Both the position numbers and the translations under genes were made by a program. The notes below the pieces were generated by a model. It had not been told where the DNA came from, searched no databases, and saw only the letters and a program-made list of their open reading frames with translations. A stretch of 64,000 nucleotides of DNA, taken from Eledone cirrhosa. Taxonomy: Eukaryota. The stretch covers positions 171,058,001 to 171,122,000 of the forward strand of contig OZ024743.1 of assembly GCA_964016885.1 (NCBI GenBank), in the 5' to 3' direction. Each line of letters opens with the position of its first letter. Positions within the stretch are counted from its first letter, which is position 1. This document shows, piece after piece, positions 3,968-63,201 of this stretch.

Positions 3968-3994
3968 CGCTTCTGACGGCTTCGCAGCCAGTCC

Positions 3995-5014: not shown

Positions 5015-5019
5015 CGCCT

Positions 5020-5760: not shown

Positions 5761-5888
5761 ATCCTAATTTTGTCTTGCGGTAAGTAATAAAAAACAACAG
5801 ACACCTCTCTATTTTTCCAGTAGCTTTGTTTTCAAGAAAGTTCTTTTTTTTTTTTTTTTTGATCAATCAGATTTCAGTTTCCAGTGCT

Positions 5889-17160: not shown

Positions 17161-17239
17161 ATACCTGCCTGTCTGGCTTCATTGACTTCGCTGCAAACCA
17201 ACTTTTAATTAATTATATATATATAATTATTCGTGGAGA

Positions 17240-17803
17240 TGTTTTCAACAATAATACTGTACTACATATTTACAACAGTAATACTATATCTTTTCAACAG
17301 TAATACTGTACTATATATTTTCAACAGTAATGCTGTACTACACTATTTATATTTCAACAGTAATACTGTACTGTACTATATATTTTCAACAGTAATACTG
17401 TACTATACATTTTCAACATTAATACTATACTATACTATATATTTTCAACAGTAATACTATAATATATATTTTCAACAGTGATACTATACTATATATTTTC
17501 AACAGTAATACTATACTATATATTTTCAATAGTGATACTATACTATATATTTTTATCAGTATACTGTACTACACTATATACTTTCAACAGTAATAATGTA
17601 CTGTACTATATATTTTCAACGGGTAATACTGTACTATATATTTTTAACAGTAATACTGTACTATATATTTTCAACAGTAATACTATACTATATTTTTTCA
17701 ACAGTAATACTGTACTATACTATATATTTTCAACAGTAATACTGTACTATACTATATATTTTCACCAGTAATACTGTACAATATATTTTCAACAGTAATA
17801 CTA
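17240..17803. repeat. 27/32-bp minisatellite (TATTTTCAACAGTAATACTGTACTATA)n
   Basis: Tandem units visible; same unit at 19958-20404. Confidence 0.95.
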
Positions 17804-19020
17804 TCTATACTATAAAGCTGACGGTCGTATGTAGGTAACAAACTTTCCGCCAAACGGCTGGACCAAACAGCACCATAGATGTAACTTTTTCCAAGTAAAA
17901 AGTGAGGGTATTTTCGTCTACTGAATTTTGTTAAAAGATTAAAGACATTATTTAAATATTCACAAGGGCGGTGGGTTGGCAGTATCGGTAGAGGGTCGGA
18001 CGCCATGCTTTCCAGCATAGTTACGTCCCTTTACAATCTGAGTTCAAATCCCGCCAAGGTTGACTTTGCCTTTCATCCTTACGGGGTCGATAAAATAAAG
18101 TACCAGTAATGAACTGGGTAATTGCTGGCCTTATGCCTAAAGTAGAAACAATTATTTAAATATTCACTTCTTTAAATTTTTCAAATGTCAACACTTCCGG
18201 TTATACGACATTCCTAACGTCTTCACAAAACAAAGTATCATCTTCCTGTTTTCTTTCGGTTGCAACGTTTTTCCAAATATTTACTTCTGCGTTCACAGAT
18301 TGATTTTTTTTTAATTTCAGAAGATCCTGTTAAGGGTGAAAGCAGATTCTTTGCTTAAACGTTTCGGATATAGATATTTTTGCATGCACAAAAACAAAAT
18401 ATAAACAAACGTATTTATTTCACGAAAGCACAGACGGCTTATCGTAATTGTTACTGCTGATATGCCACCCAAAATGTCCTAGCCTGGCCGCAAGATCAGA
18501 TTTTCCAGAAGAAAAAATGTTACTAGAGCAACAGAGAGACTAAGCTTCGCGATTACCATCAAGAAAACCCAGGGTCAAACCCTAAAAGTGGCTGGCCTTC
18601 ATCTGGGAATACCCTGGTCAATTGTATGTAGGATGCTCTAGGGTGAGCTCGCCAAACAATCTCTTCATCTTTGCTCCCGAGGGCCGAACAAAAAAATATT
18701 GTATACTCTGAGGCTCTCTAACAATGTAATTTATGTATTTTCTGTTACTTGGAATTTCCATTACGGTTGTACAAATTATTGTAAAGTTTGTTAAAAAATG
18801 TGTTCTCTGTTGAACCTTTATTGTTGTAACTGTCAATTTTCTTTACCGTACTGGCTGCTGAACTGGGGAATCCTAAAAACTATTCAAACCCAACGTCAGA
18901 GCACGTTACCCCCCGCCCCCTCCCGCCACCATTGCTGAGTTGAGAGGACGTGCAGTATCTTTGTACTGGAGTGGAGGGGGATTCCTGAAAAGATAAAATG
19001 CCGGTAAACCTAGCCGCATA
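17804..19020 (+). mobile_element. Internally deleted Helitron, copy 2, with SINE insertion
   Basis: 5' TCTATACTATAAAG; colinear with copy 1; RLSFAITIKKTQGQTLK helicase remnant; 3' region matches 22105-22195. Confidence 0.85.
17966..18153 (+). mobile_element. tRNA-derived SINE with about 17-bp TSD
   Basis: ATTATTTAAATATTCAC on both sides; empty site seen in Helitron copy 1 near 16055. Confidence 0.93.
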
Positions 19021-19088
19021 TATAGAGAGAGAGGGGGGGGGGGATAAAGAAGGATGAGAGGAAGGAGAGAAGGAGAAAAGAAACCTAC

Positions 19089-19199
19089 AATTGTTTCTAC
19101 TTTAGGCACAAGGCCAGCAATTACCCAGTACATTACTGGTACTCTCTTTTATCGACCCCGTAAGGATGAAAGGCAAAGTTAACCTCGGCGGGATTTGAA
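19089..19199 (-). mobile_element. tRNA-derived SINE, 5'-truncated
   Basis: Reverse complement of the SINE 3' two-thirds. Confidence 0.9.
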
Positions 19200-19798
19200 A
19201 AGAAACGTACAATGAAGAACATCTGAAAGTTTACACAAGCCAACTGTTGTATTTATTAACATTTCTATCTGCAGGTTCTTAGCAAGCTTACTGGCGCTTT
19301 AGTATGGTATTCAATTTTCATATCGTTTTTGATTGATATGGTGCATATATCGCAGCTATTCATATGTTTTAAACATTAGATAACGATTGCTTATGTATAT
19401 TGTACGACAGAATTGGTTGAAAAATATTTTGAATGAACAAATAAAAGAGATGTTTGTTGGTTGGTTTCTTCGCGTATCACACGAAAAAAAAACGAAAATT
19501 GACAATAGGAAAGTATGTACAGGATTGGAATAAGAGTATATCCAGGAAAGTTTATTGATACTAATTTTATAACACCAAAGAAGAAGAAAGACATACCACG
19601 TATGCTAACCAACCTGACTGCTATTTTTAGCACGTTGGGAATCAACCATAAGGGATTCTCTCTGCGAGTTCGTTGTTAGTGATGATCGTGTTTCGCGGCC
19701 TATGTCTCCGATTCCAACAGTGGTTTACACACACACACGGACACTCACACAGGCGCACACACACACACACACAGGCACACACACACACACACACACAG

Positions 19799-19856
<58 letters not shown>

Positions 19857-19957
19857 TGTAAACAAGACAATGCATTCAATACAGACGTTTTCTCTTCTTC
19901 CGGTCTTCTCTTATCATTTGTTAACCTTGGCGACGCTGAGTGCTTCAGCTAGAACTA

Positions 19958-20404
19958 CTTATTTTCAACAGTAATACTGTACTATATATTTTCAACAGTA
20001 ATACTATACCATATGTTTTCAACAGTAATATTATACTATATATTTTCAACAGTAATACTGTACTATACTATGTTTTCAACAGTCATACCATACTATACAT
20101 TTTCAACAGTAATACTATACTATATATTTTCAACAAGAATACTATTCTATACTATATATGTTCAACAGTAATACTATATACTATGTGCGTACTTCAGCTA
20201 GTACTATATATTTTCAACAGTAATACTGTACTATATATTTTCAACAGTAATACTATACCATATGTTTTCAACAGTAATATTATACTATATATTTTCAACA
20301 GTCATATCGTACTATACTATATGTTTTCAACAGTCATACCATACTATATATTTTCAACAGGAATACTATTCTATACTATATATTTTCAACAGTAATACTA
20401 TACT
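19958..20404. repeat. 27/32-bp minisatellite, same family as 17240-17803
   Basis: ATTTTCAAC recurs at 19961, 19988 and onward. Confidence 0.95.
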
Positions 20405-20535
20405 ACACAGACGGCTTCTCGTCTGTTTATCCAAGCGAAGCTAGGTACGTCAGCTATACAAATCTATATCTGGATGCCGTAGAACACGCCAATGGTAGCC
20501 GGGCGGGCCAGCTAGTATATATATATAATTATATA

Positions 20536-31306: not shown

Positions 31307-31364
<58 letters not shown>

Positions 31365-31515
31365 ATACTTTGGGAGGGTCATGTTGCCAATAAGAAACAC
31401 ACGCACCAGTTGCTTTCACTTCAATTTAATTTATTATATATTTATAAATTTACAAATTTATAAATTTCTGGTTGGTTGGTTGGTTCCACAACCAGGTAGT
31501 TGTTTATATATATAT

Positions 31516-31560
31516 AGTCATAGTTCTTTCGTCACACACTCTGTGACCTCTTCAGTGACT
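31516..31560 (-). ncRNA. Minimal type I hammerhead (mirror copy in left arm)
   Basis: Reverse complement of 31679-31723. Confidence 0.72.
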
Positions 31561-31678
31561 GGGGATTTTTTTCTTCGTTTCTGTGCCTTTCCTTTCTTCT
31601 ATCCTACGCCATTTTGTTGAAACAAAATGGCGTAGGATAGAAGAAAGGAAAGGCACAGAAACGAAGAAAGAAATCCCC

Positions 31679-31723
31679 AGTCACTGAAGAGGTCACAGAG
31701 TGTGTGACGAAAGAACTATGACT
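31679..31723 (+). ncRNA. Minimal type I hammerhead ribozyme
   Basis: AGUCA-CUGAAGA-G-GUCACA/UGUGAC-GAAA-GAAC-UA-UGACU. Confidence 0.75.
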
Positions 31724-31936
31724 ATATATATATAAACAACTACCTGGTTGTGGAACCAACCAACCAACCAGAAATTTATAAATTTGTAAATTTATAAATA
31801 TATAATAAATTAAATTGAAGTGAAAGCAACTGGTGCGTGTGTTTCTTATTGGCAACATGACCCTCCCAAAGTATAACAATATCGGTTTCAACACACGATT
31901 TCAGATAAAGAATCTTGCTAAACAAATTCAGAAACG

Positions 31937-32010
<74 letters not shown>

Positions 32011-32180
32011 CCATACATACATATATATATATATACATACAAATATATTTAAGAGTTAAACAAGATTCAATGAATACATCAAAGAATGAGTTTTACCATA
32101 GATTAGAAGCACTCAACAGTTTTCATTTCCAGAGTTATTAATTCCAAATATTAACAAAATAGATATTTTTGTGATCAATT

Positions 32181-32249
32181 ATATTTTATTATACATATTT
32201 CAGAGGTACTGAATTAAGTTCAACAGTACGTCCTCATCAGATAAAATAA
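32181..32249 (-). ncRNA. Type I hammerhead in inverted pLTR
   Basis: Reverse complement of the motif at 33756-33822. Confidence 0.82.
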
Positions 32250-33755
32250 AATGATACATGACATACCCTGACATGGTAGATGGTTAAGATTTAATCAAGG
32301 TAGTGATTAACTTATGAGAAAACTCCATATTTATACCCTAAAATTGAGAACATGAGAAAACGTAATACAATCAATAGAGAGAGTGTGAGTAATATATTTT
32401 AAAAATACATGGCATCAAAATAACAGTTATAGAATTTTTAATATTAAAAAAAAAAAGAAAACTACTAGAGAAATGTGCGGGAGAGGAAAGCATAGAGGAA
32501 GAAGTAGCTGATGTTATAACTTATTTAGTATTTAGCTTGAGAAGACAGATGAAAGATGAATAGATAGAGAGAGAGAGACAAAGGGGAGTAATTTATGCTC
32601 AATTTCTACGTACACATATTCATATAAAGTTGGCGGTTAATTTTCAAAATATTTAATTTATGTTATTTCAGGGTAAAGAATCAAATTTTAGGTTTTAAAA
32701 GTTAATGGGTATTTGTATTAATATTATAATATAATTATGTTAAATTTCAAAAATTCAAATTTTATGAAGACAAATTTAAAGGATTTACGAAACCCGCGAA
32801 AGAAAGAAAATATACATATAATGTTCGATAACCCCACAAAGGTAATCTTTACCAAAATTACTTATAATATTGACAACAGTTTCTATAATGTAATTTATGA
32901 GATATTTATAGTTATAACTATTAAAGAATTTACTGTTAAATAGTTTGAGTGCCTAAAGTATTAACAGGTCTTATAATTAAACTTAAAGAAGTCAGAATTT
33001 TTAGCTATATATATGTGTGTATTGATCATAATATACCAAGGCTATAGTTTATTATTTGTTCATATATTGTATTAAGTAAATGATTAAATAAGTTCGACCT
33101 TCCAGGGAAAACCAAACACTTATAATAATGCCATTTGAGTGCTTAAATTATTTATATAAATGCAACTACGATTATGTTATTACACTAGATAAAGATATTT
33201 GTACAAACTATATATAGATATACTAGGTATTAATGAAACGGTATACATTTAATAAAAAATAGCAATTATAATCATTGCTAGAAGTTTTACCTCCAGTTCA
33301 GTGGATAAACAGACCAATATTTGTCAGCTATTATGGTTTGTTAAATATACATAATAAAGCAAAGCGCAAATCCAACTTTCTGAGTCTCCAAAAACCATCT
33401 CAAAATAAGTAAAATATATATATATATAAAATATGCAAACGCATGAATGATCGACAGTTCAAATTTTAATAAGTGAATTTACAGGTTAGATATCTAAACC
33501 ATATATTTAAAACAGAGACAGAAAAATAAAGATCTGAATCAAAGTTAAAAATACCCCAAAAAACCCTAGGTTATGCATATCTATCAAGTTATCAAACAAG
33601 TGTCATTCATTCAAACATTAATTCCATTATAAATGATTAGAAGATAAAGCATTATTAAAGTTTTATAAACCGTTATGGAGTTTTCTCATAAGTTAAACAT
33701 CTAGCTTGATTAAATATTAACCATCTACCATGTCAGGGTATGTCATGTATCATTT

Positions 33756-33822
33756 TATTTTATCTGATGAGGACGTACTGTTGAACTTAATTCAGTACCT
33801 TTGAAATATGTATAATAAAATA
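33756..33822 (+). ncRNA. Type I hammerhead in 5' pLTR
   Basis: UAUUUUAU-CUGAUGA-GGAC-GUACUG/CAGUAC-CUUU-GAAA-UAUGUA-UA-AUAAAAUA. Confidence 0.82.
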
Positions 33823-34024
33823 TAATTCATCACAAGAATATCTATTATATTAATATTTGGAATTAATATTAATAACTCTGGAAATGAAAACTGTAGAGTG
33901 CTTCCAATCTATTGTAAAACTCATTCTTTGATGTATTCATTGAATCTTGTTTAACTCTTAAATATATATAGCTCCCAGCTGGTTGAGCACTTTTCTATAC
34001 AATAGATTGCATATTCAATAAATT

Positions 34025-36308
34025 ATGGAAGTCTTAACCTTCCTGACATCCCTCAAGGATATACCATCTAGTGAGGAATACATGAGGAAAATTATCGAAC
34101 AAACAAACTCTTTTATAAGAAGAATGAGATGGCGAGCATTTAATTTCGAAAATAAAGATGCTAAAAGAAAACCAACAGCAATCATTTCGAAACTTTATTT
34201 AAATCAAGAAAGAACCTCCATACAACAAACTCCTGGAGGATTTTGAAACTGAAATGCTCGGTATACTTAATTTTATTTAGGAAAAACCCATATTTAGGAA
34301 ACCCATATTTAGGAAAAACCCATATATAGGTCACCAATACCTTAGAACTCTAAAAGAAAAAATCACGGAAATAAAAAAAGTTAATAAAATATTGGTAAAA
34401 TCGGACAAAACAAACAATTTATATGGGATAAATAAAGAATAATAAAATAACTTGATTTTAAAGGAACTTAGGAAAAATTATAAAAAGCCCCGGCTGAAGA
34501 TCTTACAGACATCAATAATGATGCATATAAATTAATTACCAAATTAAGAATCGAAGGAAGAACAGAGCCCCTTATACCTAGACAGCCGCGGATCAATTTT
34601 AAAGATCAGAAAATAAACTTCGAGGAAGACCTGCCAGTTAGACTGATTGCTCCATCCAAATCGGATATTGGAGTAATCAGTAAAAATATTATTGATAGAA
34701 TTCTACCTACTCTGGAATTGATGTCTAAATTGAGCTTGTGGAAAGATACAAACGAAGTCATTGAATGGTATAAGAATATAGATGATAAGAAAAACCGTAA
34801 ATTCATCCAGATGGACATAACAAGCTATTACTCTTCCATAACGCCCAACCTACTAAATAAGGCTCTATCATACGCTTACAAGCATACTGATCTAACTACG
34901 GATGAAATTGATATCATATTAACTGCTAGAAGAACTCTTAATAACTTCGACAATGAGTATTGGACACGCTCAGATAGAAATAGAAACTTCGACATTACCA
35001 TGGGGTCATCCGATTCAGCGCAAATCACAGGTATTCTGGGGATTTTCATCTTAAATATGATAAATAGAAAACTGCCGGAGATTACCGGTGGTTTATATAG
35101 GGACGATATTTTATTTACAGTTGACAAACACAACAATATAGAACTAAATAGAGTAAAGAAAAATATAATTGAATTCTTTAAAATTTACGACCTTAAACTA
35201 GAAGTAGAAAGTGGTACCAAAATAGTTAATTTCCTTGATGTTACCTTTAACTTCAACTCTGGTTTTTATTACCCTTTCCATAAGCCCAATGGAAATTTAA
35301 ATTACGTTAGTTATTACTCCAATCACCCTAAGTCAGTGAAAAAAGCAATTGAAAATAGCGTGCAAAAACGCATTAATAGAATATCTGCCAAGAAAGCAAT
35401 ATTTGATGAAAATGCAGGATATTACGATGATGCGCTGAAAAAGGCAGGTTATAAAAATAATATAGAATATGTAGAAAATAATAATCCAAGTTTTAATCCT
35501 GATAAAAATAATGGCATATATAAACGAAATCCTATAAATTCTAGTAATTATAATTCAAACACCTGTACTGTGAATAAATCGGGGAAAAGAACCAGAACTA
35601 AATCAGTTATATGGTTTGCCCCCCTCCCCCTGCTTCTGTAGCAGTAAGAACACCAACAGCTAATCTATTCTTTAAAGCTTTGGATAGCTCATTCCCTAGT
35701 CACATAAATACCATTCCATTTTTAGTAGACGCACTCTTAAATTATCTTATTCTACAACTATGAATATAGCCCAAAACATCGCTAAAATAAACAGTAAAAT
35801 TCTAAATCAAAATCAACATAATGATATTAATAATAGTGTTAATATAAATAATAATAAATCAAAATGTAATTGTAGAAATAAACCAGACTGCCCTCTGCAA
35901 AATAATTGTTTGGATAGAAATTTGGTGTATAAATGCACCGTAAAAACAAATAGCAACACATACAACTACATAGGAGCGACTTCTTCAACATTTAAAGCAA
36001 GATATGCGATTCACAAATGCTCATTCTCGAATTCTAATAGGAAGTCTTCGACTTCTTTATCACAGCTTATATGGTCATTAAAAGACAAACATTTAAAATA
36101 CTCGATCTTTTGGATGAAGCTTTGTAATAGTGGAGTTTATGTCAACTCTTCTATATAAATTAACTGCAGACTCTGTACAAAGGAGACCCTATTAATAATT
36201 AATAATTATGAAAACTTAATTAACAAAAAAAGTGAATTATTCTCAAACTGCCTTCATAAAACTTTGTCTACATTCCAAGCCTCGCAAAAAGTCAGGAAAA
36301 AACAGTAA
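34025..36308 (+). pseudogene. PLE RT-GIY-YIG polyprotein, frameshifted
   Basis: SLKDIP, FIRRMRWRA, KSDKT, FIQMDITSYY, FDITMGSSDSAQ, GGLYRDD, NFLDVTF, CNCRNKPDCPLQNNCL, YIGATS, CRLC. Confidence 0.93.
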
Positions 36309-37925
36309 GCAATCAAGCCTGATTTTCGATGTTTATCATCAACTGTTGAGCATATAAGTCATAACGGTTTATAAAACTTTAATAATACTTTATCTTCTAA
36401 TCATTTATAATGGAATTAATGTTTGAGTGAATGACACTTGTTTGATAACTTGTTTACTTGATAGATATGCATAACCTAGGGTTTTGGGGGATATTTTTAA
36501 CTTTGATTCAGATCTTTATTTTTCTGTCTCTGTTTTAAATATAAAGTTTAGATATCTAACCTGTAAATTCACTGATTATAATTTGAACTGTCGATCATTC
36601 ATGCGTTTGCATATTTTATATATATATATATACACTTTACTCATTTTGAGATGGTTTTTGGAGACTCAGAAAGTTGGATTTGCGCTTTGCTTTTTTATAT
36701 ATATTTAACAAACCATAATAGCTGACAAATATTGGTCTATTTATCCACTGAACCGGTGGTAAAACTTGTAGCAATGATTATAATTGCTATTTTTTTAATT
36801 AAATATATACCGTTTCATTAATACCTACTATATCTATATATAGTTTGTACAAATATCTTTATCTAGTGTAATAACATAATCGTAGTTGCATTTATATAAA
36901 ACTACTAACAGTGATTATAATTATTATTCTTTATTAAATGTATACCGTTTCATTAATACCTAGTATATCTATATATCGTTTGTACAAATATATTTATCTA
37001 GTGTAATAACATAATCGTAGTTACATTTATATAAATAATTTAAACACTCAAATGACATTATTATAAGTGTTTGGTTTTCCCTGGAAGGTCGAACTTATTT
37101 AATCATTTACTTAATACAATATATGAACAAATAATAAACTATAGCCTTGGTATATTATGATCAATACACACATATATATAGCTAAAAATTCTGACTTCTT
37201 TAAGTTTAATTATAAGACCTGTAAATACTTTAGGCACTCAAACTATTTAACAGTAAATTCTTTAATAGTTATAACTATAAATATCTCATAAATTACATTA
37301 TAGAAACTGTTGTCAATATTATAAGTAATTTTGGTAAAGATTACCTTTGTCGGGTTATCGAACATTATATGTATATTTTCTTTCTTTCGCGGGTTTCGTA
37401 AATCCTTTAAATTTGTCTTCATAAAATTTGAATTTTAGAAATTTAACATAATTATATTATAATATTAATAAAAATACCCATTAACTTTTAAAACCTAAAA
37501 TTTGATTCTTTACCCTGAAATAACATAAATTAAATATTTGAAAATTAACCGCCAACTTTATATGAATATGTGTATGTAGAAACTTGAGCATAAATTACTC
37601 CCCTTTGTCTCTCTCTCTATTTATTCATTTTTCATCTGTCTTCTCAAACTAAATAATAAATAAGTTATAACATCAGCTACTTCTTCCTCTATGCTTTCCT
37701 CTCCCCCATATTTCTCTAGTAGTATTTAAAATACTAAAAATTCTATAACTGTTATTTTGATGCCATGTATTTTTAAAATATATTACTCACACTCTCTCTA
37801 TTGATTGTATTACGTTTTCTCATGTTCTCAATTTTAGGGTATAAATATGGAGTTTTCTCATAAGTTAATCACTACCTTGATTAAATCTTAACCATCTCAC
37901 CATGTCAGGGTATGTGATGTATCAT

Positions 37926-37994
37926 TTTATTTTATCTGATGAGGACGTACTGTTGAACTTAATTCAATACCTCTGAAATATGTATAATAAAATA
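37926..37994 (+). ncRNA. Type I hammerhead in 3' pLTR
   Basis: Same motif as 33756-33822 with stem II substitutions. Confidence 0.8.
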
Positions 37995-38040
37995 TAATTG
38001 ATCAGAAGAATATTTATTTTGTTAATATTTGGAATTAATA

Positions 38041-38076
<36 letters not shown>

Positions 38077-38146
38077 ACATACACACATATATATATATAC
38101 ATACATATATATCCATACATACATATATATATATATACATACATAC

Positions 38147-38329
<183 letters not shown>

Positions 38330-39633: not shown

Positions 39634-40061
39634 GTTATAAGATAATATAATTTAATATGGATTACCTTCGTGAGGATGAAAATATTAAGTATTCCTTCTC
39701 ATGTTTGCAAATACTTTAAATATGATTTTATAAATTAAATATAATAGTATACTTTAATATTAATATAGATATTTATAAACTTTTACAGCCTGAAATATTA
39801 TACATTTTGATTAATTCATTATTCTAAACTAACATAAATGATTTTAAATTTAACTGTCAGCCGGATAAGTTTGGATATATATAGTGTATATAATTAATTG
39901 TTAGTATATTTGTAATTAACTAAGGACACGTAATTAAACCTTTATATAATTACACCCAGATATATTTAATATTTAGATTGATGGATATTTCTAGATAATT
40001 CAAAAATTCAAGATTCTAGTTTAATCTTTCACAAATGTATATTCATGTGTTTGTATAGATA

Positions 40062-40792
40062 TAATAATTCTAAGGACATGATTTATGATATATTGCTCTG
40101 ATTATTTAATTTATTAATTCTTCATAGAGCCAAAAAGTGACCGGTTGCAGCATATATGTCTATAACTTTATGTATATGTAAACCTTTATATTTAATAATC
40201 TCCCGTTAGGTTGAGATACAATTTGGCGATATTTGGCTGCGCTTTCTAGCAACAAGCCTACCCGCCGTAAGCAACCAATCACATTCTTTCTAGCTTGACC
40301 ACAGCCACATTGCGATTCTTAGCCATTTTTGAATCTAATTTTGGCGCGATCACGTTGGAAAACTAAATGTCTGATTTTGAGTTTGTCTCCTGATGAATCC
40401 TAACTCAAGACATTCCTATTAATTGGATGTCTAAAAATACGGATGAAACCATGGTAGAGATATAATTACGGTATGTACACATTTCTTCTAAGTTTAATTT
40501 TACACCTAATTGTGTATGGTTGATGGTATATTTAGTCAGTTTCTACATGCTGTCGAAATGTTGGATAAATACTCTATTGGGGCCACCGCGAAGAGGCCAC
40601 TTTCGGTTATTTGTCGGAAATTTCTTCATAAGAGCCTTTCTTCTTATAGCTTGGTCTAATTGATTTTTTATATGGTTAATTATGCTAATTGGGAGAGGAA
40701 ATGGTATATATTTTATCTAATAATTCTAAGGACATGATTTATGATATATTGCTCTGATTATTTAATTTATTAATTCTTCATAGAGCCAAAAA
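40062..40792 (+). mobile_element. ORF-less 656-bp unit with 75-bp direct terminal repeats and internal HHR
   Basis: 40062-40136 repeated at 40718-40792; interior homologous to 58510-58936. Confidence 0.82.
40384..40462 (+). ncRNA. Type I hammerhead with extended stem II and palindromic stem III
   Basis: UGUCUC-CUGAUGA-AUCC...GGAU-GAAA-CCAUGG-UA-GAGAUA; GUA triplet. Confidence 0.88.
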
Positions 40793-43117: not shown

Positions 43118-44835
43118 TCAAGTTATAAATTGGGTGTTGAGTTCTATGCTAGTATTGATTGGTGGTTGTGTTTTGTCTATAATTAGTGCTTCCTTAATTC
43201 TAAGATTGCCGAGGTTTCTTTCCTTAGTTTCTATCCTAACTGTTATGGTTTTGTCGGTGTTTTTGCATTTAACTAGGTGTTTCTTAAATGAGGAAGCGTT
43301 AGTATTGAGGTGTTCTTTTATTCTTATGTGGAGTGGTCTGGTGGTGCTACCTACGTAGAAGTTGTTGCATTTGTCACACTCTAGTCTGTATACGACGTAA
43401 GCCTGGTGGTATAGGTCTGTGTCGTTGATGGGGCAGTTGGCTAGTCTGCAGCAGTTGTCATGTCTGGTGGAGTGTCTTTTGGTTAGCTGTCCGCGTAGAG
43501 AAGGACCTGAGTGTGCCAGTTGGATATCTAGTCCCTCTCGTCTGATAGCTCTGCGGATGGCTGTTGTTGTTTCTTCACTGAAGTGTGGGAGCTTCAGGAA
43601 GCAAGTGTTAGTGCCTCGGGTGTGGTGTCCTCTGTTCTTTCTGGCACGGTTTGTGGTGGATGTCGTGTATCCGTTCAGTTTGAGTACTTCCAGGAAATGT
43701 GTGGTGTGTGTGTCTCGGTCTCTAGCGTCGGTGCATTTGTTCCGGATACGTGTTAGTTCGTTCCTTATGTATCCGAACTTAGCACTGGCTGGGAGGGCCG
43801 ATCTGAAATGTACGAACAGGTCCCTGCTGGCGGCTTTTTTATAGAAGCAGGTGTTGATGTTGCCTTCCTCTGTTACTCTGAGTTGGAAGTCCAGTAGGGA
43901 TAGGGATCCGCGGTCATTGGGGTGTTCCATGCTGAACTTTATACTGGCGTCCATGCTGGAGAATGTTGTGTATATTTTCTCTGCCTCCTCGCGGGATGAT
44001 GTAAGGATGAGTATGTCATCTACATATCGGGTGAAGAAGGTATGGGAATGGCAGGTGTTGAGGGCTCGGCATTCTAGCTAGTTCATGTAGGTGATGACCA
44101 GCAGTCCCGATAGGCTGGATCCCATGGGTCATCCTGTTGTCTGTCTGTATGTGTGGTGGTGGAAGGTGAAGTACGTGTTGTCTACTGTGAAGGACAAAAG
44201 CTGGTGTATGTCCGTCGGGTGGAGGCCGTAGCAGTCGATGTCCTCTGCGACCACGCAGTCCGTTGATAAATCGACAGCTGGATGAGCGGGGACTGTAGTG
44301 TAGAGGGAGACAACGTCGAGGCTAAAGCCGTATCTATTTAGTTTAAGATGTTCTGGCTGGAGTTGGTGTAGTCTACGTATAAGTTCGTCGGAGCTACTGA
44401 CATGCCCGGGAAAGGTGGAGAGTAGAGGCTTGAGGACCTGGGAGAGGAGCCAGGAAATTTTGTATAGGGGTCCTTCTATGCTAGAGACGATGGGTCTTAT
44501 TTGCGTCTTAGTACTATTCTTGTGGGTATTGATGAGGTGGTAGAAAGTGGGCAGTCTGCTATTTCTAGTGGTGTAGTTGAGCTTAACTTTATTTGGGAAT
44601 TGTCTTCTCCTACAGATATCGAACCAGATGGAGTTGGTCTGTTTTTCGATCTGGGCTGCAGTCATGTCCGGGATCTCTGTATATAATTCATTGTCGCTTA
44701 GGTGTTCAAAGGCTAGGTTGTTGTATGTGGCTTGAGAGATGACGCAAAACTCTTTACCTTTGTCGGATGGTAAGTATATAAGTTCCCTATTCCGTAGGTT
44801 CTTCAGGGCGAGTTGTTGTGTCCTGGAGAGGTTTG
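43118..44835 (-). pseudogene. PLE RT + GIY-YIG, interrupted by in-frame stops
   Basis: ORFs 44129-45025 (part) and 43118-43954 are in the same frame, separated by stops. Confidence 0.9.
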
Positions 44836-45518
44836 ACACTTGCTTCCTGAAGCTCCCACACTTCAGTGAAGAAACAACAACAGCCATCCGCAGAGCTATC
44901 AGACGAGAGGGACTAGATATCCAACTGGCACACTCAGGTCCTTCTCTACGCGGACAGCTAACCAAAAGACACTCCACCAGACATGACAACTGCTGCAGAC
45001 TAGCCAACTGCCCCATCAACGACACAGACCTATGCCACCAGGCTTACGTCGTATACAGACTAGAGTGTGACAAATGCAACAACTTCTACGTAGGTAGCAC
45101 CACCAGACCACTCCACATAAGAATAAAAGAACACCTCAATACTAACGCTTCCTCATTTAAGAAACACCTAGTTAAATGCAAAAACACCGACAAAACCATA
45201 ACAGTTAGGATAGAAAGAGATATTATCTCGAAAATTAAAGACATTTAAATAAATCTAAGGTAAAAGACTAATTGTCAACAATATCTTTTGCATTTGCATT
45301 CTTTATTCTATGTCCATACCTGCATTTATTTGGCTTTATTATACATATACAAACGTCTATATATATATATGTATATAACAAAGGCATTGTGGTAAGGAGC
45401 CAGATGGACCATAAACACACCAGAGTACTAAATACTTAGGGTAGTAGTGTGGGAAATAAAAAAATGTATGACCTCGACGGCAGAGCTCAAGCGGTTTCGA
45501 CGGCTATTTCTGGACTAA

Positions 45519-45566
<48 letters not shown>

Positions 45567-45668
45567 TCAGGTTATCAATAATGTAGTGATAATATATCGT
45601 TACGTTAGAGATGAACAGCGTACGTGCAGGTTTGCTCAACGAGTATAAATTATATTCCGGAGAAAATG

Positions 45669-47717
45669 TAGAAAGGATGAATATAAAATGAAAGTGCTTT
45701 TTTTAAAAAGGAATTTATTAGGTATTGACATATGTTTCTGTAACAGACGGAATACCTATGTATCGCTGCTTGCGTAATCATATAATGTTAGCAAGTATTC
45801 GATAGCAAATGTATAATAGGTTGTCACTTCTTCAGAGATTTTGGATAAATTGGATAAAATCAGAAAAATTGAAGTATTTATATTAGTAATAGAGGAAGAA
45901 AAAGAGGGGATAGTATATGACAGATGGTAAATTAATTTACTGCTAAACAAGTATATAATGGGTTTCTAATGAGAATACCATGAGTAAATCTAAATAAGAA
46001 TTTTGGGAGTGCCAATTTTAATCTCTACTTGACCAATTGGACAGTGGACAGGGCTGGTCATTTGGTGCAGTAGTATTAATTATAAAGTGTCAGTTGGGGA
46101 AGGGGGAGATTTCGATTGCTACTAAATAACATCCATGCTAGTAGCCAGCTGGTATATGCATTAGGGAATTGAATCAAGAAATCAGAAATCTCATTTTATC
46201 TATAGCAGTTTATATTAAAAAGTAAATAATAGAAGAGTTGATAGAATTAAGACTAATAAAGAATGTTAATATCTATTTTGACAATCAAACGGAGATAGAG
46301 ACAGGCGTTCAATCCTGGTAGTATTTATAATATGAAAATGTAGATTTTAAGCGATGGTTACAGTATAACGATCGCTCTATTCTGTTATTTAATAAAATGT
46401 TTTTGGATTTCATAATACAAAATAATTCAAATAATTCTACATTACATAATTTACAAAATTCCTGTCCATGGGATTAGGGGGGGGGGGGGCAGCCGCTATT
46501 ATATCCCATTTTAGGTGAAATTGTTGGTTATTTTCACGCAGCTGCCAACTAACATCACAAAACAACAAACAACATCCTATCCTACATAAGCAACCTCATC
46601 AACCCATCCATGGCAATACAACAACGCAAAATTATAATTGCAACTGTGTCCAACCAGGAATGTGTCCGTTGAACAATCAGTGTCTTGAACGCAACATCGT
46701 ATACAAATGTACTATCGAATCGGATAGACAGAAGTGGTACTATGTGGGATCTACGGCCACCTCCTTCAAATCATGCCTTTATAGACATCGTTACTCGATA
46801 AAACATGAAAACCAGCGTTATGTAACAACACTCGCAGACAAGGCTTGGCAGCTGCGTGAAAATAACCAACAATTTCACCTAAAATGGGATATAATAGCGG
46901 CTGCCCCCCCCCCCCCCCCCATAATCCCATGGACAGGAATTTTGTAAATTATGTAATGTAGAATTATTTTGTATTATGAAATCCAAAAACATTTTATTAA
47001 ATAACAGAATAGACCGATCGTTATACTGTAACCATCGCTTAAAATCTACATTTTCATATTATAAATACTACCAGGATTGAACGCCTGTCTCTATCTCCGT
47101 TTGATTGTCAAAATAGATATTAACATTCTTTATTAGTCTTAATTCTATCAACTCTTCTATTATTTACTTTTTAATATAAACTGCTATAGATAAAATGAGA
47201 TTTCTGATTTCTTGATTCAATTCCCTAATGCATATACCAGCTGGCTACTAGCATGGATGTTATTTAGTAGCAATCGAAATCTCTCCCTTCCCCAACTGAC
47301 ACTTTATAATTAATACTACTGCACCAAATGACCAGCCCTGTCCACTGTCCAATTGGTCAAGTAGAGATTAAAATTGGCACTCCCAAAATTCTTATTTAGA
47401 TTTACTCATGGTATTCTCATTAGAAACCCATTATATACTTGTTTAGCAGTAAATTAATTTACCATCTGTCATATACTATCCCCTCTTTTTCTTCCTCTAT
47501 TACTAATATAATACTTCAATTTTTCTGATTTTATCCAATTTATCCAAAATCTCTGAAGAAGTGACAACTGATTATACATTTGCTATCGAATACTTGCTAA
47601 CATTATATGATTACGCAAGCAGCGATACATAGGTATTCCGTCTGTTACAGAAACATATGTCAATACCTAATAAATTCCTTTTTAAAAAAAGCACTTTCAT
47701 TATATATTCATCCTTTC

Positions 47718-47719
<2 letters not shown>
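45669..47719 (+). mobile_element. Heavily 5'-truncated Naiad-type PLE with about 880-bp inverted repeats
   Basis: 45669-46548 is the reverse complement of 46845-47719; centre encodes CNCVQPGMCPLNNQCL..IVYKCT..YVGSTATSFK. Confidence 0.92.
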
Positions 47720-47754
<35 letters not shown>

Positions 47755-48816: not shown

Positions 48817-51736
48817 AGACACTTTGTATGTTAATGTACGCGTGTGTATGTGTGTGTGTGTATAAGACTCTTTGTATGTTAATGTACGCGTGTGTATGTG
48901 TGTGTGTGTATATATATATATGTGTGTGTGTGTGTGGGTGGACCAGTATTTTTTTCCTAGTAAAATGGTGTACATTATTCGATATTTTCAGCAAAATCGA
49001 TTCTCTCAATAGAACATCAAAAACCTTAACAATAAAAGGTGTGAAATTATATTCACTATATATATATATACATACATATATTCACTATACATATATATAT
49101 ATATATATTTTTGTGTTGCACCATAGAACATGTGTGTTTACGTATGTCATTGTGTTTATATGTTGGTATGTATGTTGTGGGTTCATCTTAGGGAGAAGTG
49201 TTTAGACGGGGTCCGTATTTTTTAATAAAGTAATATTCCTTGCTGATGCGCTGGGTGTGGGTGGCATTATATTTAAATTTGTAGAGGGGAAACATTCTGA
49301 AGTTGGGATGATTTTGGGCGGCACAGGTATCAATGTGTTCACTCAGTGGTATTTTCCTGTATTCCCGTATTTTAATTTGGGATCTATGGACAGTCATGCG
49401 TTGGCGGGGGATGTTTTTGGTCTGGCCTATGTATTGTTCTCGACAACCTGAGCAAGTTAATACATATATTAGATTTTCCGATGTACATGTGAAATTGTGT
49501 TTTACTATAAAACGTTGCCCTTTTTTGAAATAGAATTCCGAACCCTCTATTAGGTTGATGCAAATGCCACAGTTGGGTCTATCGCATTTTTTTACTGTGG
49601 GTTTCGTTGTTGTGGTTGGTGGTACTTTGCATGTGTTAGGATGTTTTTCATTGACTTAGATTGTCTTTTGCTCTTTATGATATCGTGTGTGCGTAGGATT
49701 TGGTTCATTCTATGGTCCTTTTTCAACACAGGGATGTTCTGGAGGATGGTGTCAAAGGCCTCATTGTTGAAGGGGTGTGTGTGGAGATGTATGAAAGAGC
49801 TTTTAGTTTCGGTTGATTTACTTTAGGGTGTCTAAGGTCCTGGGTACTGAGTTTTAGGGCACGTTGGATTCCATTGTCAATTAGTGATGCAGGGTAGTCC
49901 CTGCCTATAAGTGCGTCCTTTAGTTCTTGTAGCCGTAAGTAGCAGGTGTTTTTATTGGAGACTATAGTACAGATTCTCTTGGCTAAGTTGTAGGGAATAT
50001 TAATTTTAACGTGTCTAGGGTGGCAAGAGTTGAAAGGAAGATATTGTTTGGAGTCTGTGGGCTTGTAGTATATGTCTGTTTCTATTTTTTGTTATGGATC
50101 TTAAAGAGGATGTCGAGGAAGGGGAGTTGTTGATGGCTGTATTCCATCGTGAAGTTAATATTCGTGTTGAGCCCATTTATAAGGGTGTGAAATTTTAAAG
50201 TTTTTCGATGTTTTCGTGCCAAAGGATGAAGCAGTCATCTAGATATCGCTTCCAGTTCCTTTCTATGTGTAAGTGGAGAGTGTTTCCAAATTTGTTTAGG
50301 ACTTTAGTGTAGAGGGTGATTTCCAGGTATCCCATGACTAGGTTGGCATAAGTGGGGGCTGTTTTCGTTCCCATAGCGGTCCCAGATTTCTGCCTGTACG
50401 GTTTGTTATTGAAAACGAAGTAATTGTTCTCCAAGATAAATTTGAGTCCCTCTATCACGAATTCTTTTTTGATGCGTTGTGGGAGTTCATTGTGGAAATT
50501 ATCCAGCCAGAATTGGATAGCTTCTATTCCTAGGTTGTGGGGGTTGTTGGAGTATAGGTTGACTATACCGAACGTCACTAGTAGGGTTTGTTCAGAAAGT
50601 GGCATATTAGGGAGGTGATTGAGCATATCTAGGTCGTCCCTTATATAGCTTTTGATGTGTTTGAGAAAGGGCTTGAGAAGGGTATCAATGAAGTTGCTAA
50701 GGCGGTGGGTTTCGCAAGCGGGGCCTGCTATTATAGGTCTTAATTTGAGATCATTGGGTGAGGGGACATTGATGACTATGTCTGTGGCTTCCTTGCATGC
50801 CTTACTTATTAATTCGCTTTTATGTACTTTAGGGATACCGTAGAAAAGGCTGGATTTACTTGTGAAGTATGTGATGAAGCTGAATTCCTTGTTAGTGAGT
50901 CCTTCTTTGTATTGGTTGATTAGAGTTTTTAGGTTTCTCATAATTTTCTGTTGATTGTAGTGTTCAGCCTTTTCGTAGTATGTTTCGTTTTCCAAAGTGG
51001 AGAGCGCTAAGTTGATATAGAATTCTGTCTCCATTAGGACTACTGAACTCCCTTTATCAGCCTCTTTAATTGTAATGGTTCTGTCGGTTTTTAATCTATT
51101 TAATTCTTCCCATTATTTCTTGTTGAGGTTTCGCTTGTGTTTTTGTCTGTGCAAGTGTTGGTAAGGGAAGTTTGTGATGTGTTCACAGAATTCGTCCAGG
51201 ATTTTATTTCTACCTTTTGATGGGGTGTAATTGCTTCTATTTCTGGCTAATGATTCATCCTCATTGTACTGGTCGAATAGTTGTTCACTGAGTCGTAACT
51301 TTCTACAGAAGTCTGTGATGTCTTCCTTCATTTCATAGTAGTTAGGACGTAGTGGGGTCGGTGTGAATTTAAGACCTTTGGAGAGTAAGTTGATAAGGTT
51401 GGGTGTTGGTTCTGAACTAGTAAGATTGATAATTTTTATTACTATCGGGTTCTCCCCCCTGTCTTGTGTTATTTTGTTTGCCTGTATCTGTGTGCTGTGT
51501 CTAAAAAATGGTTGGGGTAGAGGGGTTGTCTGCTGATGTTAAGTGGTCTCCTGTGTTTGTTATATTCCTTGTTGTTGTAAAATGTGGTTCGGGTTGGTGG
51601 TTGTAGATTGAATGGGGTGTTCCTGTACTGCGAGTATGGGTGTGTGTTTCTATGTGCCATGTTGTATTGTGGTGTTATAGGTGGCCTACGTTGTTGGTTG
51701 TATCGTGTGGAGTGGGTTTGTTGTGTATTGTGGAAG

Positions 51737-53649: not shown

Positions 53650-56600
53650 ACATAGAATATTAATCTGCATTTAGATCATAATATGTGTTTACATAGTAGT
53701 TTCAGTATTAGGAAATGTAAGAAAGAAGGCAAAATTATGCATTTTAATATAAGTAGACTATTAATTATAGGTTAACTAAATTAAAGATAGTTAATATATT
53801 GATTTCTAAGGTGTATACTATTTAGGTTTATAATATTTGAAGCGGAATTTTGAAGTTAAATAGTAGTAGGGTATTAATTATAGTATAACTAAATTAAAAT
53901 TATTAACGTTATGGTATCAATATTAGGAAATGAATTTAGTAATAGGGAAAAAAACCAAATAAAGTATTACATCGGTAGTAGAATATAAATTATAGGTTAA
54001 CTAAATTAAAAATTATATATTAATTTCTATAGTATATGTTAATTAGGTTTATAATAATTATAACAGATATTGTATTTTATCTATAGTAGAATATAATTAT
54101 AGGTAAACAAAAATTAAAATTAATATATACACACATATATATTCATATATATATACACACACATATATATATATATACATATACACATACATATATATAT
54201 ACATATTTTTTCAAAAATTGCAAAGAATATATTAACTAGGTATACATCTAAAACCTATCTCAGTCTATGATTATATGACACTCTGCAATCCATCTGTATT
54301 AGGATTTTAATTTTAAGCCAATTAAATTAAATTTTTAGGTTAACCAAATTAAAACCAAATTATAATTATATTTCTAAATTGTACATTAATTAGGTCTATA
54401 ATATTAAAAAATATTTCTCTGTCATTGAATACACGATATTTTGTTAAATTTTATCTGTAAAGGAATTTTAATAAAAGGTTAAATAAATTAAAATTAATCT
54501 ATAAATTAATTTACAAAGTATATATTAGTAATATTTAAAAGTTTTTCACAATTTATGATTACACAATATTTTATAATCTCATCTGTAGTAGAATTTTAAT
54601 TAAATTAAATTTATAGGTTAACTAACATTTAAATTAAATTATATGTTAATATCTAAAATAATGTTATTAATTAGGTTTATAATATTTAAATGTTTTTCTT
54701 AGTTTATGATTACACGATATAATTAATTCCTGTCGTTTATTTAATAGGATATCCTTAGATTTCATTATTTCAAATAGTTCTTGGGAACATAATCTACATT
54801 CATTTCTATTATTTTGATAAGGGGTGGCTCTTTTGAGCACACTCCAGGTCATATCATATTCTATATTCTTATTTTTATAACTATTGATTTTTTCTGCTAG
54901 AGATGTTGTATTAGCCAGTGCGGCATTTTTAAAACTATGTTTGTGGGTATTAAACCTTACCTTAAAATTGTTAGAAGTAGCTCCTATATATGAGCAAATA
55001 GAATCTTTAGTTTTAACATTACATTTATAAACTATGTTGTTAACAAGACAATTTCCTTTTAATGGGCAGTTTGCTTTGTTTCTACAGTTACAACCTTTCG
55101 TTAATTCTGTATTTGAGGAGATATTATGGTTAGTTTGATGTATTGGTGGTATACTTATGGTATTCTTACATTTATATGCATTATAGGCACTTATATTTTG
55201 TTTTATGTTATTGGTTGTTGAGTATGAGAATTTAACTGTAGACCTATTTAAGATTTGATGGTATTTGTGGTTTGGCGGGAAGTTTTTCTCTAGGATATAA
55301 AAAATTTTTTTAGCAATATTATCCTTAATTTGTAAATTAAATGGAGCATTATACCAAGTAACTCGTCTATTACGGTTTCTATGTTGTTTATTATTTTTAT
55401 AGGTTGTATCGTGATGTTTACTAGGAGGATTAATGTTAATGATCTCACCACGCACATTTTTAGTTAGATTTATAGATTTAGGTGTTTTATCTTGTTTATT
55501 AAGAGTTTTATTATTAACATTTATTAGAGTTGTATGATGAGTAGTTTTTTGAGAGTTACTATACTTTATATTAGAAGAGTTGTTGGTATTTTTGGGTATA
55601 GTGTGGGTGGCATTTAGGTGTGTACTTTTCATTTGGTGTTTGTTGGTAATATTAGGTTGTATGTTTATAGTATTTTTATTTTTAGTAGAAGGTATATATT
55701 CTAATCTATTTTTGTGGCCACTTCTATCTAGAGCTTCATTATAGAAGGTCGCATTTTTATCAAATACATCTTGGTTAGAAGAAAGGTTAGAAATTCTAAG
55801 TGATATATTATATGCAAGGTTTTTAAGGATAGATTTAGGGTGATTAGATTGTGAGTGTATGTAGTGTAAGTTTTGGTTGGGTTTATGGTAAGGTTGGTAG
55901 ATACCCGTAGCTAAGTCTAAAGTTATATCTAGGAAATTTACTACTTTACTTGTTTTTTCAAAAGTAATATGAAGACTATAATAGTCTTTAAGGAAAGTTC
56001 TAATATGCTTTTTGTTTTTTCTATTTCTGAAAGGCTAAGGTTGTTGGAAAGAAGAAGACAGTCATCACGATATAAACCACCTTTAAGGTGGGGAAAGGAG
56101 GCATTTATGTTGAAAAGGAGAAAGAGGCCCACAAGATCAGTAATTTGGGCGGAATCGCTTGAACCCATAGTAATATCAAATAGATTACTATATGTGTTTC
56201 TGGTCCAGTATTCATTCTGAAATTCAATAAATGTTAGTCTAGCATGTGTCATATTAATGTCATCCAAAGTTAAGTTAGATCTATTTTTAGCAAATATCAA
56301 TGCTTTGTTCAGGAGTATAGGTGATATAGAAGAATAGTAATTATCTATATCAAATTGTAGAAATGAAGCAGAAGATTTACATCTAATATTTTTAAACCAG
56401 TTAATTACCTGGGAAGTGTTTTCCCAGAGTGGTAAATTAACGTGTTTTCTTATTTGTGGGATGACTCTATCCAAAATTTTTTTGCTAATTATTCCAATAT
56501 CAGATTTGGAGGGACATATAAGTCTTATAGAAGGATTTGAGTTAAAGTTTGATTTATGATCCTTCAGGTTGAAGTGTGGTCTTTTCAATGCCAAAGGTTC

Positions 56601-57340
56601 AGTTCTATCTTCAATGTTTAGTTTTTTTACTATGTTGTGTGTTTTGTTTATTGATGTTGGTGAGTGACGCATTATTAGATTTTTTATAATTTTTCCTGAG
56701 TTCTTTATATATGAACTCATTATAATCTTCAATATCCATGTGATACAAGTTACCAGTTTTGTCCGAGTGGACATGGATTTTTTTAGACTTTTTTAGGTCC
56801 AATAGGGTAGAATCAAGGTCCTTTTGAAAGACAGATTTATACTTCTTAAATTTGAGGTGTTTAATTAAATTAAAAAGGTCTTTCTCAAAGTCTTCAAGTA
56901 AAGAGTTGTGTGGTGGATTCTTGTAAGTATTGAAATCATACATATATTTCCTATCTGCATAATTAGATTTTTTATCGAAGTGGTAGGCCCTCCATCTAAC
57001 TCTTCTGATAAATTGGTTGGTTTTTTGAATCATAAGGAGTAAGAAGTCATCCTTAGAAGGTATTGGTATATTCTTTAAAGAGGTTCCCAAGTATTGTTTT
57101 TCCATTGTGATATGGATGATGGACAATTGAAAGAGCTCAACTAACTGTATATGGGTTTACAAAATCATACATATATATGTATATACATAAATATAAAATT
57201 AACACACACATACAGTATCTTGACTCTGTATTCCGTTTATCTTTCACCGAAAGTGATTTTTCATTGCATTTCTTCTTTCCATGATATCCGGATTACATTG
57301 AGTTCTTCATACGGATTGGACACTACCGTAAACTCTTGGT
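53650..57340 (-). mobile_element. Near full-length Naiad-type PLE with AT-rich repetitive 3' UTR
   Basis: SLKNIPIPS, FIRRVRWRA, SDKTGN, FDIDNYY, FDITMGSSDSAQ, GGLYRDD, CNCRNKANCPLKGNCL, YIGATS, CRLC. Confidence 0.9.
54667..57126 (-). pseudogene. PLE RT-GIY-YIG polyprotein, frameshifted
   Basis: ORFs 56611-57126, 55941-56774 and 54667-55632 are successive pieces. Confidence 0.92.
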
Positions 57341-57500: not shown

Positions 57501-57642
<142 letters not shown>

Positions 57643-57697
57643 GTGTATATATATATGTATAAATGTACATATATATATATATGTATATATATATATG

Positions 57698-57876
<179 letters not shown>

Positions 57877-57891
57877 ACATATATATGTATA

Positions 57892-58107
<216 letters not shown>

Positions 58108-58120
58108 GTATATATATATG

Positions 58121-58155
<35 letters not shown>

Positions 58156-58274
58156 GTATATATATATAAAGGTTTACATATATATATATATACATATATA
58201 CATATACGTGTTTTGCAACGGATCACTTTGTGGTTCAATGAAAAGTTAATAAATTAAATAATCAGTGCTATATA

Positions 58275-58932
58275 TCATAAAACATGTCTATAGAATCACC
58301 AGACAAAATATATACCATTTCGTCTCCCAATTAGCATAATTAACCATATGAAAAATCGAATAGACCAGGCTATAAGAATAAGGCTTCTATGAAGACATCT
58401 CCAACAAATAACCGAAACCAGCCCTTCGCGTCGGCTGCGACGGAATATTTATCGAATATTTCGACAGCGTAATCGCCCAGATATACAGTCAATTAAACAG
58501 AATTAGGCTGCTACGTCACGATTCTTAGCCATTTCTGAATGTATTCTTGGCGCGATCACTTTCGAAAATTTATTGTCTAGATTTGAGCTAACTCCTGAAG
58601 AGTCCAGTGCTCAAGGTTCCGAAGTTATCGGTAATCTTAAAATGCGGACGAAACCAAGGTCGGGGTAAATAAATGTATTCTCTTTTCTCCTAGTTTATTT
58701 TACACCTAATTCTGTTTAATTGACTGTATATCTGGGCGATTACGCTGTCGAAATATTCGATAAATATTCCGTCGCAGCCGGCGCGAAGGGCTGGTTTCGG
58801 TTATTTGTTGGAGATTTCTTCATAGAAGCCTTATTCTTATAGCCTGGTCTATTCGATTTTTTATATCGGTAATTATGCTAATTGGGAGAGGAAATGGTAT
58901 ATATTTTATCTGGTGATTCTATAGACATGTTT

Positions 58933-58938
<6 letters not shown>
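58275..58938 (+). mobile_element. ORF-less fold-back element: about 233-bp inverted repeats around a 200-bp HHR-containing loop
   Basis: 58275-58507 is the reverse complement of 58705-58938. Confidence 0.9.
58590..58666 (+). ncRNA. Type I hammerhead, homologue of 40384-40462
   Basis: ACUC-CUGAAGA-GUCC...GGAC-GAAA-CCAAGG-UC-GGGGU; GUC triplet. Confidence 0.85.
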
Positions 58939-59024
<86 letters not shown>

Positions 59025-59034
59025 AGAACAAAAG

Positions 59035-59220
<186 letters not shown>

Positions 59221-59310
59221 TTCTTAGGGTACTACTTCGCTTTTCACTATTCGATATGTATATATATATATAGTTAAAAGAATAGAGGTGTAACACACCT
59301 GTTATTATAT

Positions 59311-63149
<3,839 letters not shown>

Positions 63150-63150
63150 G

Positions 63151-63201
<51 letters not shown>

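What the first reader, a model, noticed from the sequence alone, without database searches (positions are those of the whole stretch)
58275..58938. Same HHR family recurs as a fold-back element, with compensatory changes in the ribozyme
Seen: about 233-bp inverted repeats enclose a 200-bp loop with an HHR. The loop and right arm are homologous to about 40310-40745 but diverged. Stem II covaries (AUCC/GGAU versus GUCC/GGAC), the core is CUGAUGA versus CUGAAGA, the triplet is GUA versus GUC, and both keep an internal hairpin in loop II. Inference: covariation points to selection on the RNA fold, and one non-coding family integrates in both direct-repeat and inverted-repeat form, as PLEs do.
Basis: partly seen in the sequence, partly recalled or inferred. 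Interest (0 to 1): 0.75.

Follow-up and report, generated by a model that had tools for sequence, protein, structure and literature searches.

The report
Penelope-footprinted hammerhead retrozyme copy
This fold-back is one decayed copy of a 656-base non-coding repeat, present thousands of times in the genome, that carries a hammerhead ribozyme motif and was likely pasted in by Penelope-type retrotransposon enzymes, whose known back-to-back, one-tailed insertion pattern it shows.

Summary
Observation confirmed: 239-bp arms (96.7%), a type I hammerhead in the loop, 77% like 40313-40749. It is not a family with terminal inverted repeats. Both window copies belong to an ORF-less ~656-bp tandem unit (2,066 exact core matches, control 0; a 44-unit array). 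Ends lie in (TA)n. This is the published Penelope-like (PLE) footprint, so the best reading is a PLE-mobilised non-LTR retrozyme. 5' ends are threefold enriched at the cut site, yet 204 of 221 arms read through. No autonomous partner was found. The scan noted this footprint and a pseudoknotted retrozyme before on other DNA. New variant of a known kind.

The parts
58161..58276 (-). Tail: start of the next unit (unit positions 1-118), present on the left arm only; ends in (TA)n
   Evidence: 93% to reference unit; exact outer end fuzzy by a few bases in TA
58269..58507 (-). Left arm: 5'-truncated copy, unit 423-662
58507..58943 (+). Right arm: 5'-truncated copy, unit 225-662, ends at the main end into (TA)n; joined head to head to the left arm with one shared base at 58507
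58583..58588 (+). 5' strand of the predicted pseudoknot (pairs with 58609-58614 in loop II)
   Evidence: sequence; pair counts
58590..58666 (+). Type I hammerhead motif: stem I 58590-58594/58662-58666, core 58595-58601, stem II 58602-58605/58646-58649, loop-II hairpin about 58615-58636, GAAA 58650-58653, short stem III with CCAAGG (family CCAUGG), predicted cut after 58661
58662..58943 (+). Region from cut site to main end; in the 40-kb copy it folds as a long rod
   Evidence: whole unit z = -4.1, 0 of 20 shuffles as good
57600..58160 (.). Left (TA)n target tract (extends further left)
58944..59219 (.). Right (TA)n target tract, with a short piece of another repeat inside
40059..40792 (+). Second copy, other subfamily: unit 629-663, full unit 40087-40749, then unit 1-50; hammerhead core 40390, cut after 40456, pseudoknot strands 40377-40383 and 40402-40408

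Best explanation
The fold-back is two shortened copies of a 656-bp ORF-less hammerhead repeat joined head to head in a TA microsatellite, likely written there in one event by a Penelope-like reverse transcriptase-endonuclease acting in trans on retrozyme RNA. Shown: tandem unit, no ORF, locus-specific inversions, two fixed 3' ends about 110 nt apart with one on each arm, (TA)n targets. Inferred: tandem copies give multimeric or circular RNA; the enzyme nicks both strands of (TA)n; each strand primes reverse transcription, one at the main end and one at the tail end of the template; both cDNAs stop early and are joined at their far ends. The hammerhead, with a palindromic mini stem III, would cut as a dimer and only part of the time, with the pseudoknot standing in for the usual loop I-loop II contact. 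This copy is probably an inactive relic.
For: Unit and period: 147 full units, longest stop-free frame median 65 aa, max 127; 44-unit array. Footprint: of 160 classified chains 66 are head to head; 56 of 57 with both ends classifiable have one tail and one main end (28.5 expected, P 4e-16); 66 of 66 junctions differ; (TA)4+ follows 122 of 130 main ends and 69 of 76 tail ends. PMC8557442 (passages) describes inverted 5'-truncated copies, a tail often at one end only and (TA)n bias for PLEs; PMC11167929 (parts 1-2 of 4) shows two internal RT start sites, both strands cleaved and extended, uncut RNA as main template. bioRxiv 10.64898/2026.07.22.740005 (parts 1-3 of 5) relates animal retrozymes of 51-972 bp to pLTRs. 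Fold: 88.7% cells paired vs 83.7 shuffled and 31-44% slid, 13 of 25 pairs with two-sided change. 5' ends at -3..+12 of the cut: 17 vs 5.6 expected; -2..+2: 7 vs 1.8. GIY-YIG-bearing RT fragments exist in the window.
Against: No autonomous element sharing the unit was found. The tail is about 110 nt, longer than the 30-40 bp in PMC8557442. Both 3' ends lie at TA-rich points of the unit, so microhomology may help fix them, whereas the anole PLE starts without homology. 9 of 66 inverted loci had an end that fit neither class. Covariation is not significant once kinship is counted: 1 independent pair for the pseudoknot swap, 1 for column 35/82, about 2 for the first stem II pair, which is unpaired in 21 of 62 copies. 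The cut-site window was chosen after seeing the data, is AT-rich, and another 5-nt window (-172) holds 7 ends too; in the genome-order sample alone it is 5 vs 2.0, P 0.05. The isolated ribozyme does not fold better than shuffles (z -0.4 to -1.4).
Confidence: 0.82

Rival explanations
1. The unit is only the truncated pseudo-LTR of an autonomous PLE that is still in the genome.
For: PLE copies are mostly 5'-truncated (PMC8557442); the RT search had 46,722 first-look candidates; the partner search was a sample.
Against: Copies that run past the unit's start continue into the same unit, not into an ORF; 44-unit array; unit profile against 30 RT loci gave nothing better than E 0.04; the one same-strand RT neighbour looked at (L152) is separated by an inverted tail and unrelated sequence.
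Confidence: 0.08
2. A foldback DNA transposon or MITE whose terminal inverted repeats captured a ribozyme.
For: Long near-perfect arms in TA targets at this locus.
Against: Arm lengths and junctions differ at every locus, 94 of 160 chains have no inversion by the chaining used, and the ends are asymmetric.
Confidence: 0.02
3. A satellite spread by DNA-level events, inverted by template switching at (TA)n, with a fossil ribozyme.
For: A long array exists; ends lie at TA-rich points; most arms ignore the cut site.
Against: Fixed 3' ends with scattered 5' ends are the polarity of reverse transcription; one-tail rule; helices kept across subfamilies that differ by up to 30%.
Confidence: 0.05
4. 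Mobilised by a LINE with L1-type twin priming.
For: LINE-type endonuclease-RT fragments occur in the window; twin priming gives 5' inversions (recalled).
Against: L1 twin priming gives adjacent, non-overlapping segments (recalled); here both arms hold the same 3' segment. No poly(A) end seen (flanks).
Confidence: 0.03

Closest known systems
Animal non-LTR retrozymes (PMC7229834, passages; bioRxiv 10.64898/2026.07.22.740005, parts 1-3 of 5)
   Same: Tandem ORF-less repeats, type I hammerhead per unit, GC 34-36%, self-paired RNA, dispersed monomers to long arrays, PLEs in the same genome.
   Different: 656 nt against 170-400 nt in PMC7229834 (inside the 51-972 bp range of the preprint); loop II of about 40 nt with a hairpin and predicted pseudoknot; frequent head-to-head insertions with a one-sided tail, which the passages read do not describe; RNA not shown.
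Insertion units of endonuclease-bearing PLEs: Penelope/Poseidon, Neptune, Nematis, Naiad, Hydra (PMC8557442, passages; PMC11167929, parts 1-2 of 4)
   Same: Partial tandems, inverted 5'-truncated copy, tail at one end, microsatellite targets, hammerhead near the end.
   Different: No RT-endonuclease ORF; tail about 110 nt, not 30-40; no sequence link to a PLE found.
Metazoan and PLE hammerheads with short palindromic helix III (PMC4209133, passages)
   Same: 1-2 bp helix III with palindromic loop, predicted to work as a dimer.
   Different: Large structured loop II; one subfamily has a longer helix III (81 matches).
Pseudoknot-stabilised hammerheads (PMC3088659, passages)
   Same: Base pairing between stem I and stem II regions replaces loop-loop contacts; reported in all three types.
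   Different: Here between the strand 5' of stem I and loop II in an animal retroelement; predicted only.

Membership tests
Animal non-LTR retrozyme | Type I hammerhead motif in each unit | tested here: met
Animal non-LTR retrozyme | Tandem units, dimers to multimers | tested here: met
Animal non-LTR retrozyme | No protein coding | tested here: met
   median longest frame 65 aa over 147 units
Animal non-LTR retrozyme | Low GC, self-paired RNA | tested here: met
   GC 0.34-0.36; z -4.1 for one unit
Animal non-LTR retrozyme | Self-cleavage | not testable with these tools
   Indirect only: 17 vs 5.6 5' ends at the cut
Animal non-LTR retrozyme | Expressed as circular RNA | not testable with these tools
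   No RNA run was available to lay
PLE-mobilised element | Inverted 5'-truncated copy with tail at one end | tested here: met
   56 of 57; tail longer than published
PLE-mobilised element | Microsatellite target bias | tested here: met
   191 of 206 3' ends followed by (TA)4+
PLE-mobilised element | Sequence shared with an autonomous PLE | tested here: inconclusive
   None in the loci sampled; thousands of copies unread
Autonomous PLE | RT plus GIY-YIG ORF | tested here: not met
Foldback transposon or MITE | Family-fixed terminal inverted repeats | tested here: not met
   66 different junctions in 66 loci

The most novel reading that the evidence does not exclude
This family is a genomic record of how a PLE enzyme copies a retrozyme: both target strands are primed on one template at two fixed sites 110 nt apart, one each, with near-perfect regularity, and a pseudoknotted, dimer-dependent hammerhead cuts a minority of templates in vivo, leaving 5' ends at its cut site. 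It would be a minimal 656-nt substrate for dissecting PLE double-ended insertion and a distinct structural class of animal hammerheads shared by unrelated retrozymes.
Probability: 0.35. Interest if true: 0.62.

Novelty: new variant of a known kind. Interest (0 to 1): 0.4.

Why it matters
That PLEs mobilise animal retrozymes is proposed from co-occurrence and pLTR kinship (PMC7229834; bioRxiv 10.64898/2026.07.22.740005). Here an ORF-less retrozyme carries the PLE insertion footprint itself, with a quantified one-tail rule that constrains how inverted PLE insertions form, a question PMC8557442 lists as open. The cut-site excess and the pseudoknot give direct bench tests. The single locus is an ordinary decayed copy, and each component has a published precedent.

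Tried and rejected
Rfam scan: no hammerhead among the 150 of 153 matches shown. RNA holders: none listed; contigs of 3 runs not on record as RNA hold family sequence, one from a second organism, and say nothing on expression. Partner hunt: tblastn with 7 window RT fragments over the fetched loci, unit profile against 30 RT loci, alignment to the 5' region of the RT element at 54667-57156 (15 of 300 shuffles as good): nothing contiguous. A diverged group that looked like a partner is a further subfamily. First motif scan had an index error and missed both ribozymes (fixed). The first cut-site count lacked one subfamily and showed no peak (redone in 60, 61). Arm-to-arm kinship: sister arm was the nearest copy in 16 of 42 loci, above the median of the ten nearest in 22 of 42, three rows having boundary artefacts: it cannot tell one RNA from two. 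Tree-aware covariation tests were not significant (1 of 63 rows dropped). Paper searches listed no paper on this family; supplements were not opened and may hold such ribozymes or Repbase names. Scan look-ups by place and by sequence were empty.

Full report
Observation. The arms are 58269-58507 and 58705-58943, 239 bp and 96.7% complementary; loop plus right arm match 40313-40749 at 77%. Rfam shows no hammerhead among 150 of 153 listed matches, and the bare motif folds no better than shuffles.

The family. The host is a 3.0-Gb, TA-microsatellite-rich genome. Searches with the two window copies gave 1,781 and 2,689 first-look candidates, at 93-96% and 97-100% identity among those scored. An exact core pattern has 2,066 matches and a 22-nt 3' motif 4,185, both with 0 in the reversed control. 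All 30 first pattern loci belong to one unit of about 656 bp. 147 full units fall into 19 clusters at 93%, with a longest stop-free frame of median 65 aa. GC is 34-36%; one array holds 44 near-full units and begins with an inverted tail-bearing arm. One full unit folds well below shuffles (z -4.1).

What the fold-back is. Against a reference unit the window element is positions 225-662 on the plus strand joined, with one shared base, to positions 423-662 plus 1-118 on the minus strand, so it spans about 58161-58943. In 159 merged segments, 66 chains are head to head, 94 single-orientation and 4 set aside; some single ones have short inverted tails that my filter hid. All 66 junctions differ. 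Outer ends fall at a main end or about 110 nt further on; of 57 inverted loci with both ends classifiable, 56 have one of each, against 28.5 if independent; 9 others have an odd end. (TA)4+ follows 122 of 130 main and 69 of 76 tail ends. PMC8557442 (passages) describes this layout for PLEs with a 30-40 bp tail. PMC11167929 (parts 1-2 of 4) ties the tail to two internal RT start sites and shows both DNA strands cleaved and extended.

The ribozyme. On 63 distinct copies, 88.7% of cells pair (shuffled 83.7; slid 31-44) and 13 of 25 pairs change on both sides. On a tree of the downstream region (62 rows) that swap is one event, and no pair reaches significance. Independent support comes from a family unrelated outside the ribozyme, found as an outlier: 17 of 18 correctly anchored copies (of 30 loci; 10 lacked the core, 2 were mis-anchored) have 7-10 bp at the same place, controls averaging 3.6; an alternative pairing inside its loop II is possible. 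In our family the helix is 4-5 bp in 48 of 63, controls mostly 2-4. Such pseudoknots are known in hammerheads (PMC3088659, passages). The palindromic mini stem III predicts cleavage as a dimer (PMC4209133, passages). The window copy differs from 26 subfamily copies at three positions where all 26 agree and one where 24 do, in stems I and II, the hairpin and the palindrome: it is decaying.

Does it cut? Among 308 arms, 5' ends at -3..+12 of the cut number 17 against 5.6 expected, and 7 against 1.8 at -2..+2, three exactly at +1; 204 of 221 arms read through. The window was chosen after seeing the data, the region is AT-rich, and the genome-order sample alone gives 5 against 2.0. I read this as a hint of partial cleavage, with uncut or circular RNA as the main template.

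Partner. The window holds several RT fragments inside inverted repeats, two with GIY-YIG hits; three have no Pfam hit and my label 'Hydra-like' for them is recalled, not tested. No copy of the unit ran into an RT ORF in the loci read, and the unit profile found nothing in 30 RT loci. The enzyme is therefore inferred from the footprint.

Mechanism. Shown: unit, tandems, polarity, two 3' ends, one per arm, TA targets. Inferred: multimeric or circular RNA, a PLE enzyme nicking both strands, priming at two sites, joining of the truncated cDNAs. Whether one or two RNAs are used is open.

Verdict. A non-LTR retrozyme by every feature testable here (PMC7229834, passages; bioRxiv 10.64898/2026.07.22.740005, parts 1-3 of 5), with a long unit, long tail and predicted pseudoknot. 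Six paper searches listed no paper on this family; supplements were not read. Earlier notes of the scan report the same footprint and a pseudoknotted retrozyme on other DNA; I reached this reading before seeing them. Interest 0.40.

Noticed in passing
window 31357-31882: A second, unrelated fold-back: 526-bp palindrome (99.2%) with a small type I hammerhead motif on each arm (cores at 31555 minus and 31684 plus).
   Followed up: partly
window about 9220, minus strand: Another small hammerhead-like motif followed by TA.
   Followed up: no
window 31939-38230: RT-bearing element (frame 34484-35641) inside 1.3-kb inverted arms, with a hammerhead-like motif at about 37946 that relatives carry just upstream of their ORF; 46,722 first-look candidates.
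   Followed up: partly
window 43118-45216, 45666-47722, 49188-51538, 54667-57156, 59068-63198: Further RT or GIY-YIG fragments, most within inverted arms: the window is dense in PLE-type insertions.
   Followed up: partly
window 2246-5763, minus strand: gag/pol-like frames of an LTR-type retroelement.
   Followed up: no
L161-L163 and L236 (G000 C1, about 92.986-93.016 Mb): Array of 44 near-full units starting with an inverted tail-bearing arm; some units have an altered stem II. A possible source locus.
   Followed up: partly
L198 and L334-L363: A second hammerhead repeat family (564 candidates, about 460-bp period in three loci), unrelated outside the ribozyme, with the same design and a 7-10 bp predicted pseudoknot.
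   Followed up: partly
L242, L249, L319-L333: Subfamily with a longer stem III closed by a 3-nt loop (81 matches), which could cut as a monomer.
   Followed up: partly
L127, L129, L137-L139, L143 and kin: A clade whose first stem II pair is A-A or shifted by extra bases after the core.
   Followed up: no
L161 700-2030, L165 440-1560, L154, L166: Other small hammerhead repeats with a period near 466 bp and head-to-head layout.
   Followed up: no
window 1-1350 and 17239-20408: Tandem arrays of 37-bp and 27/32-bp units.
   Followed up: no
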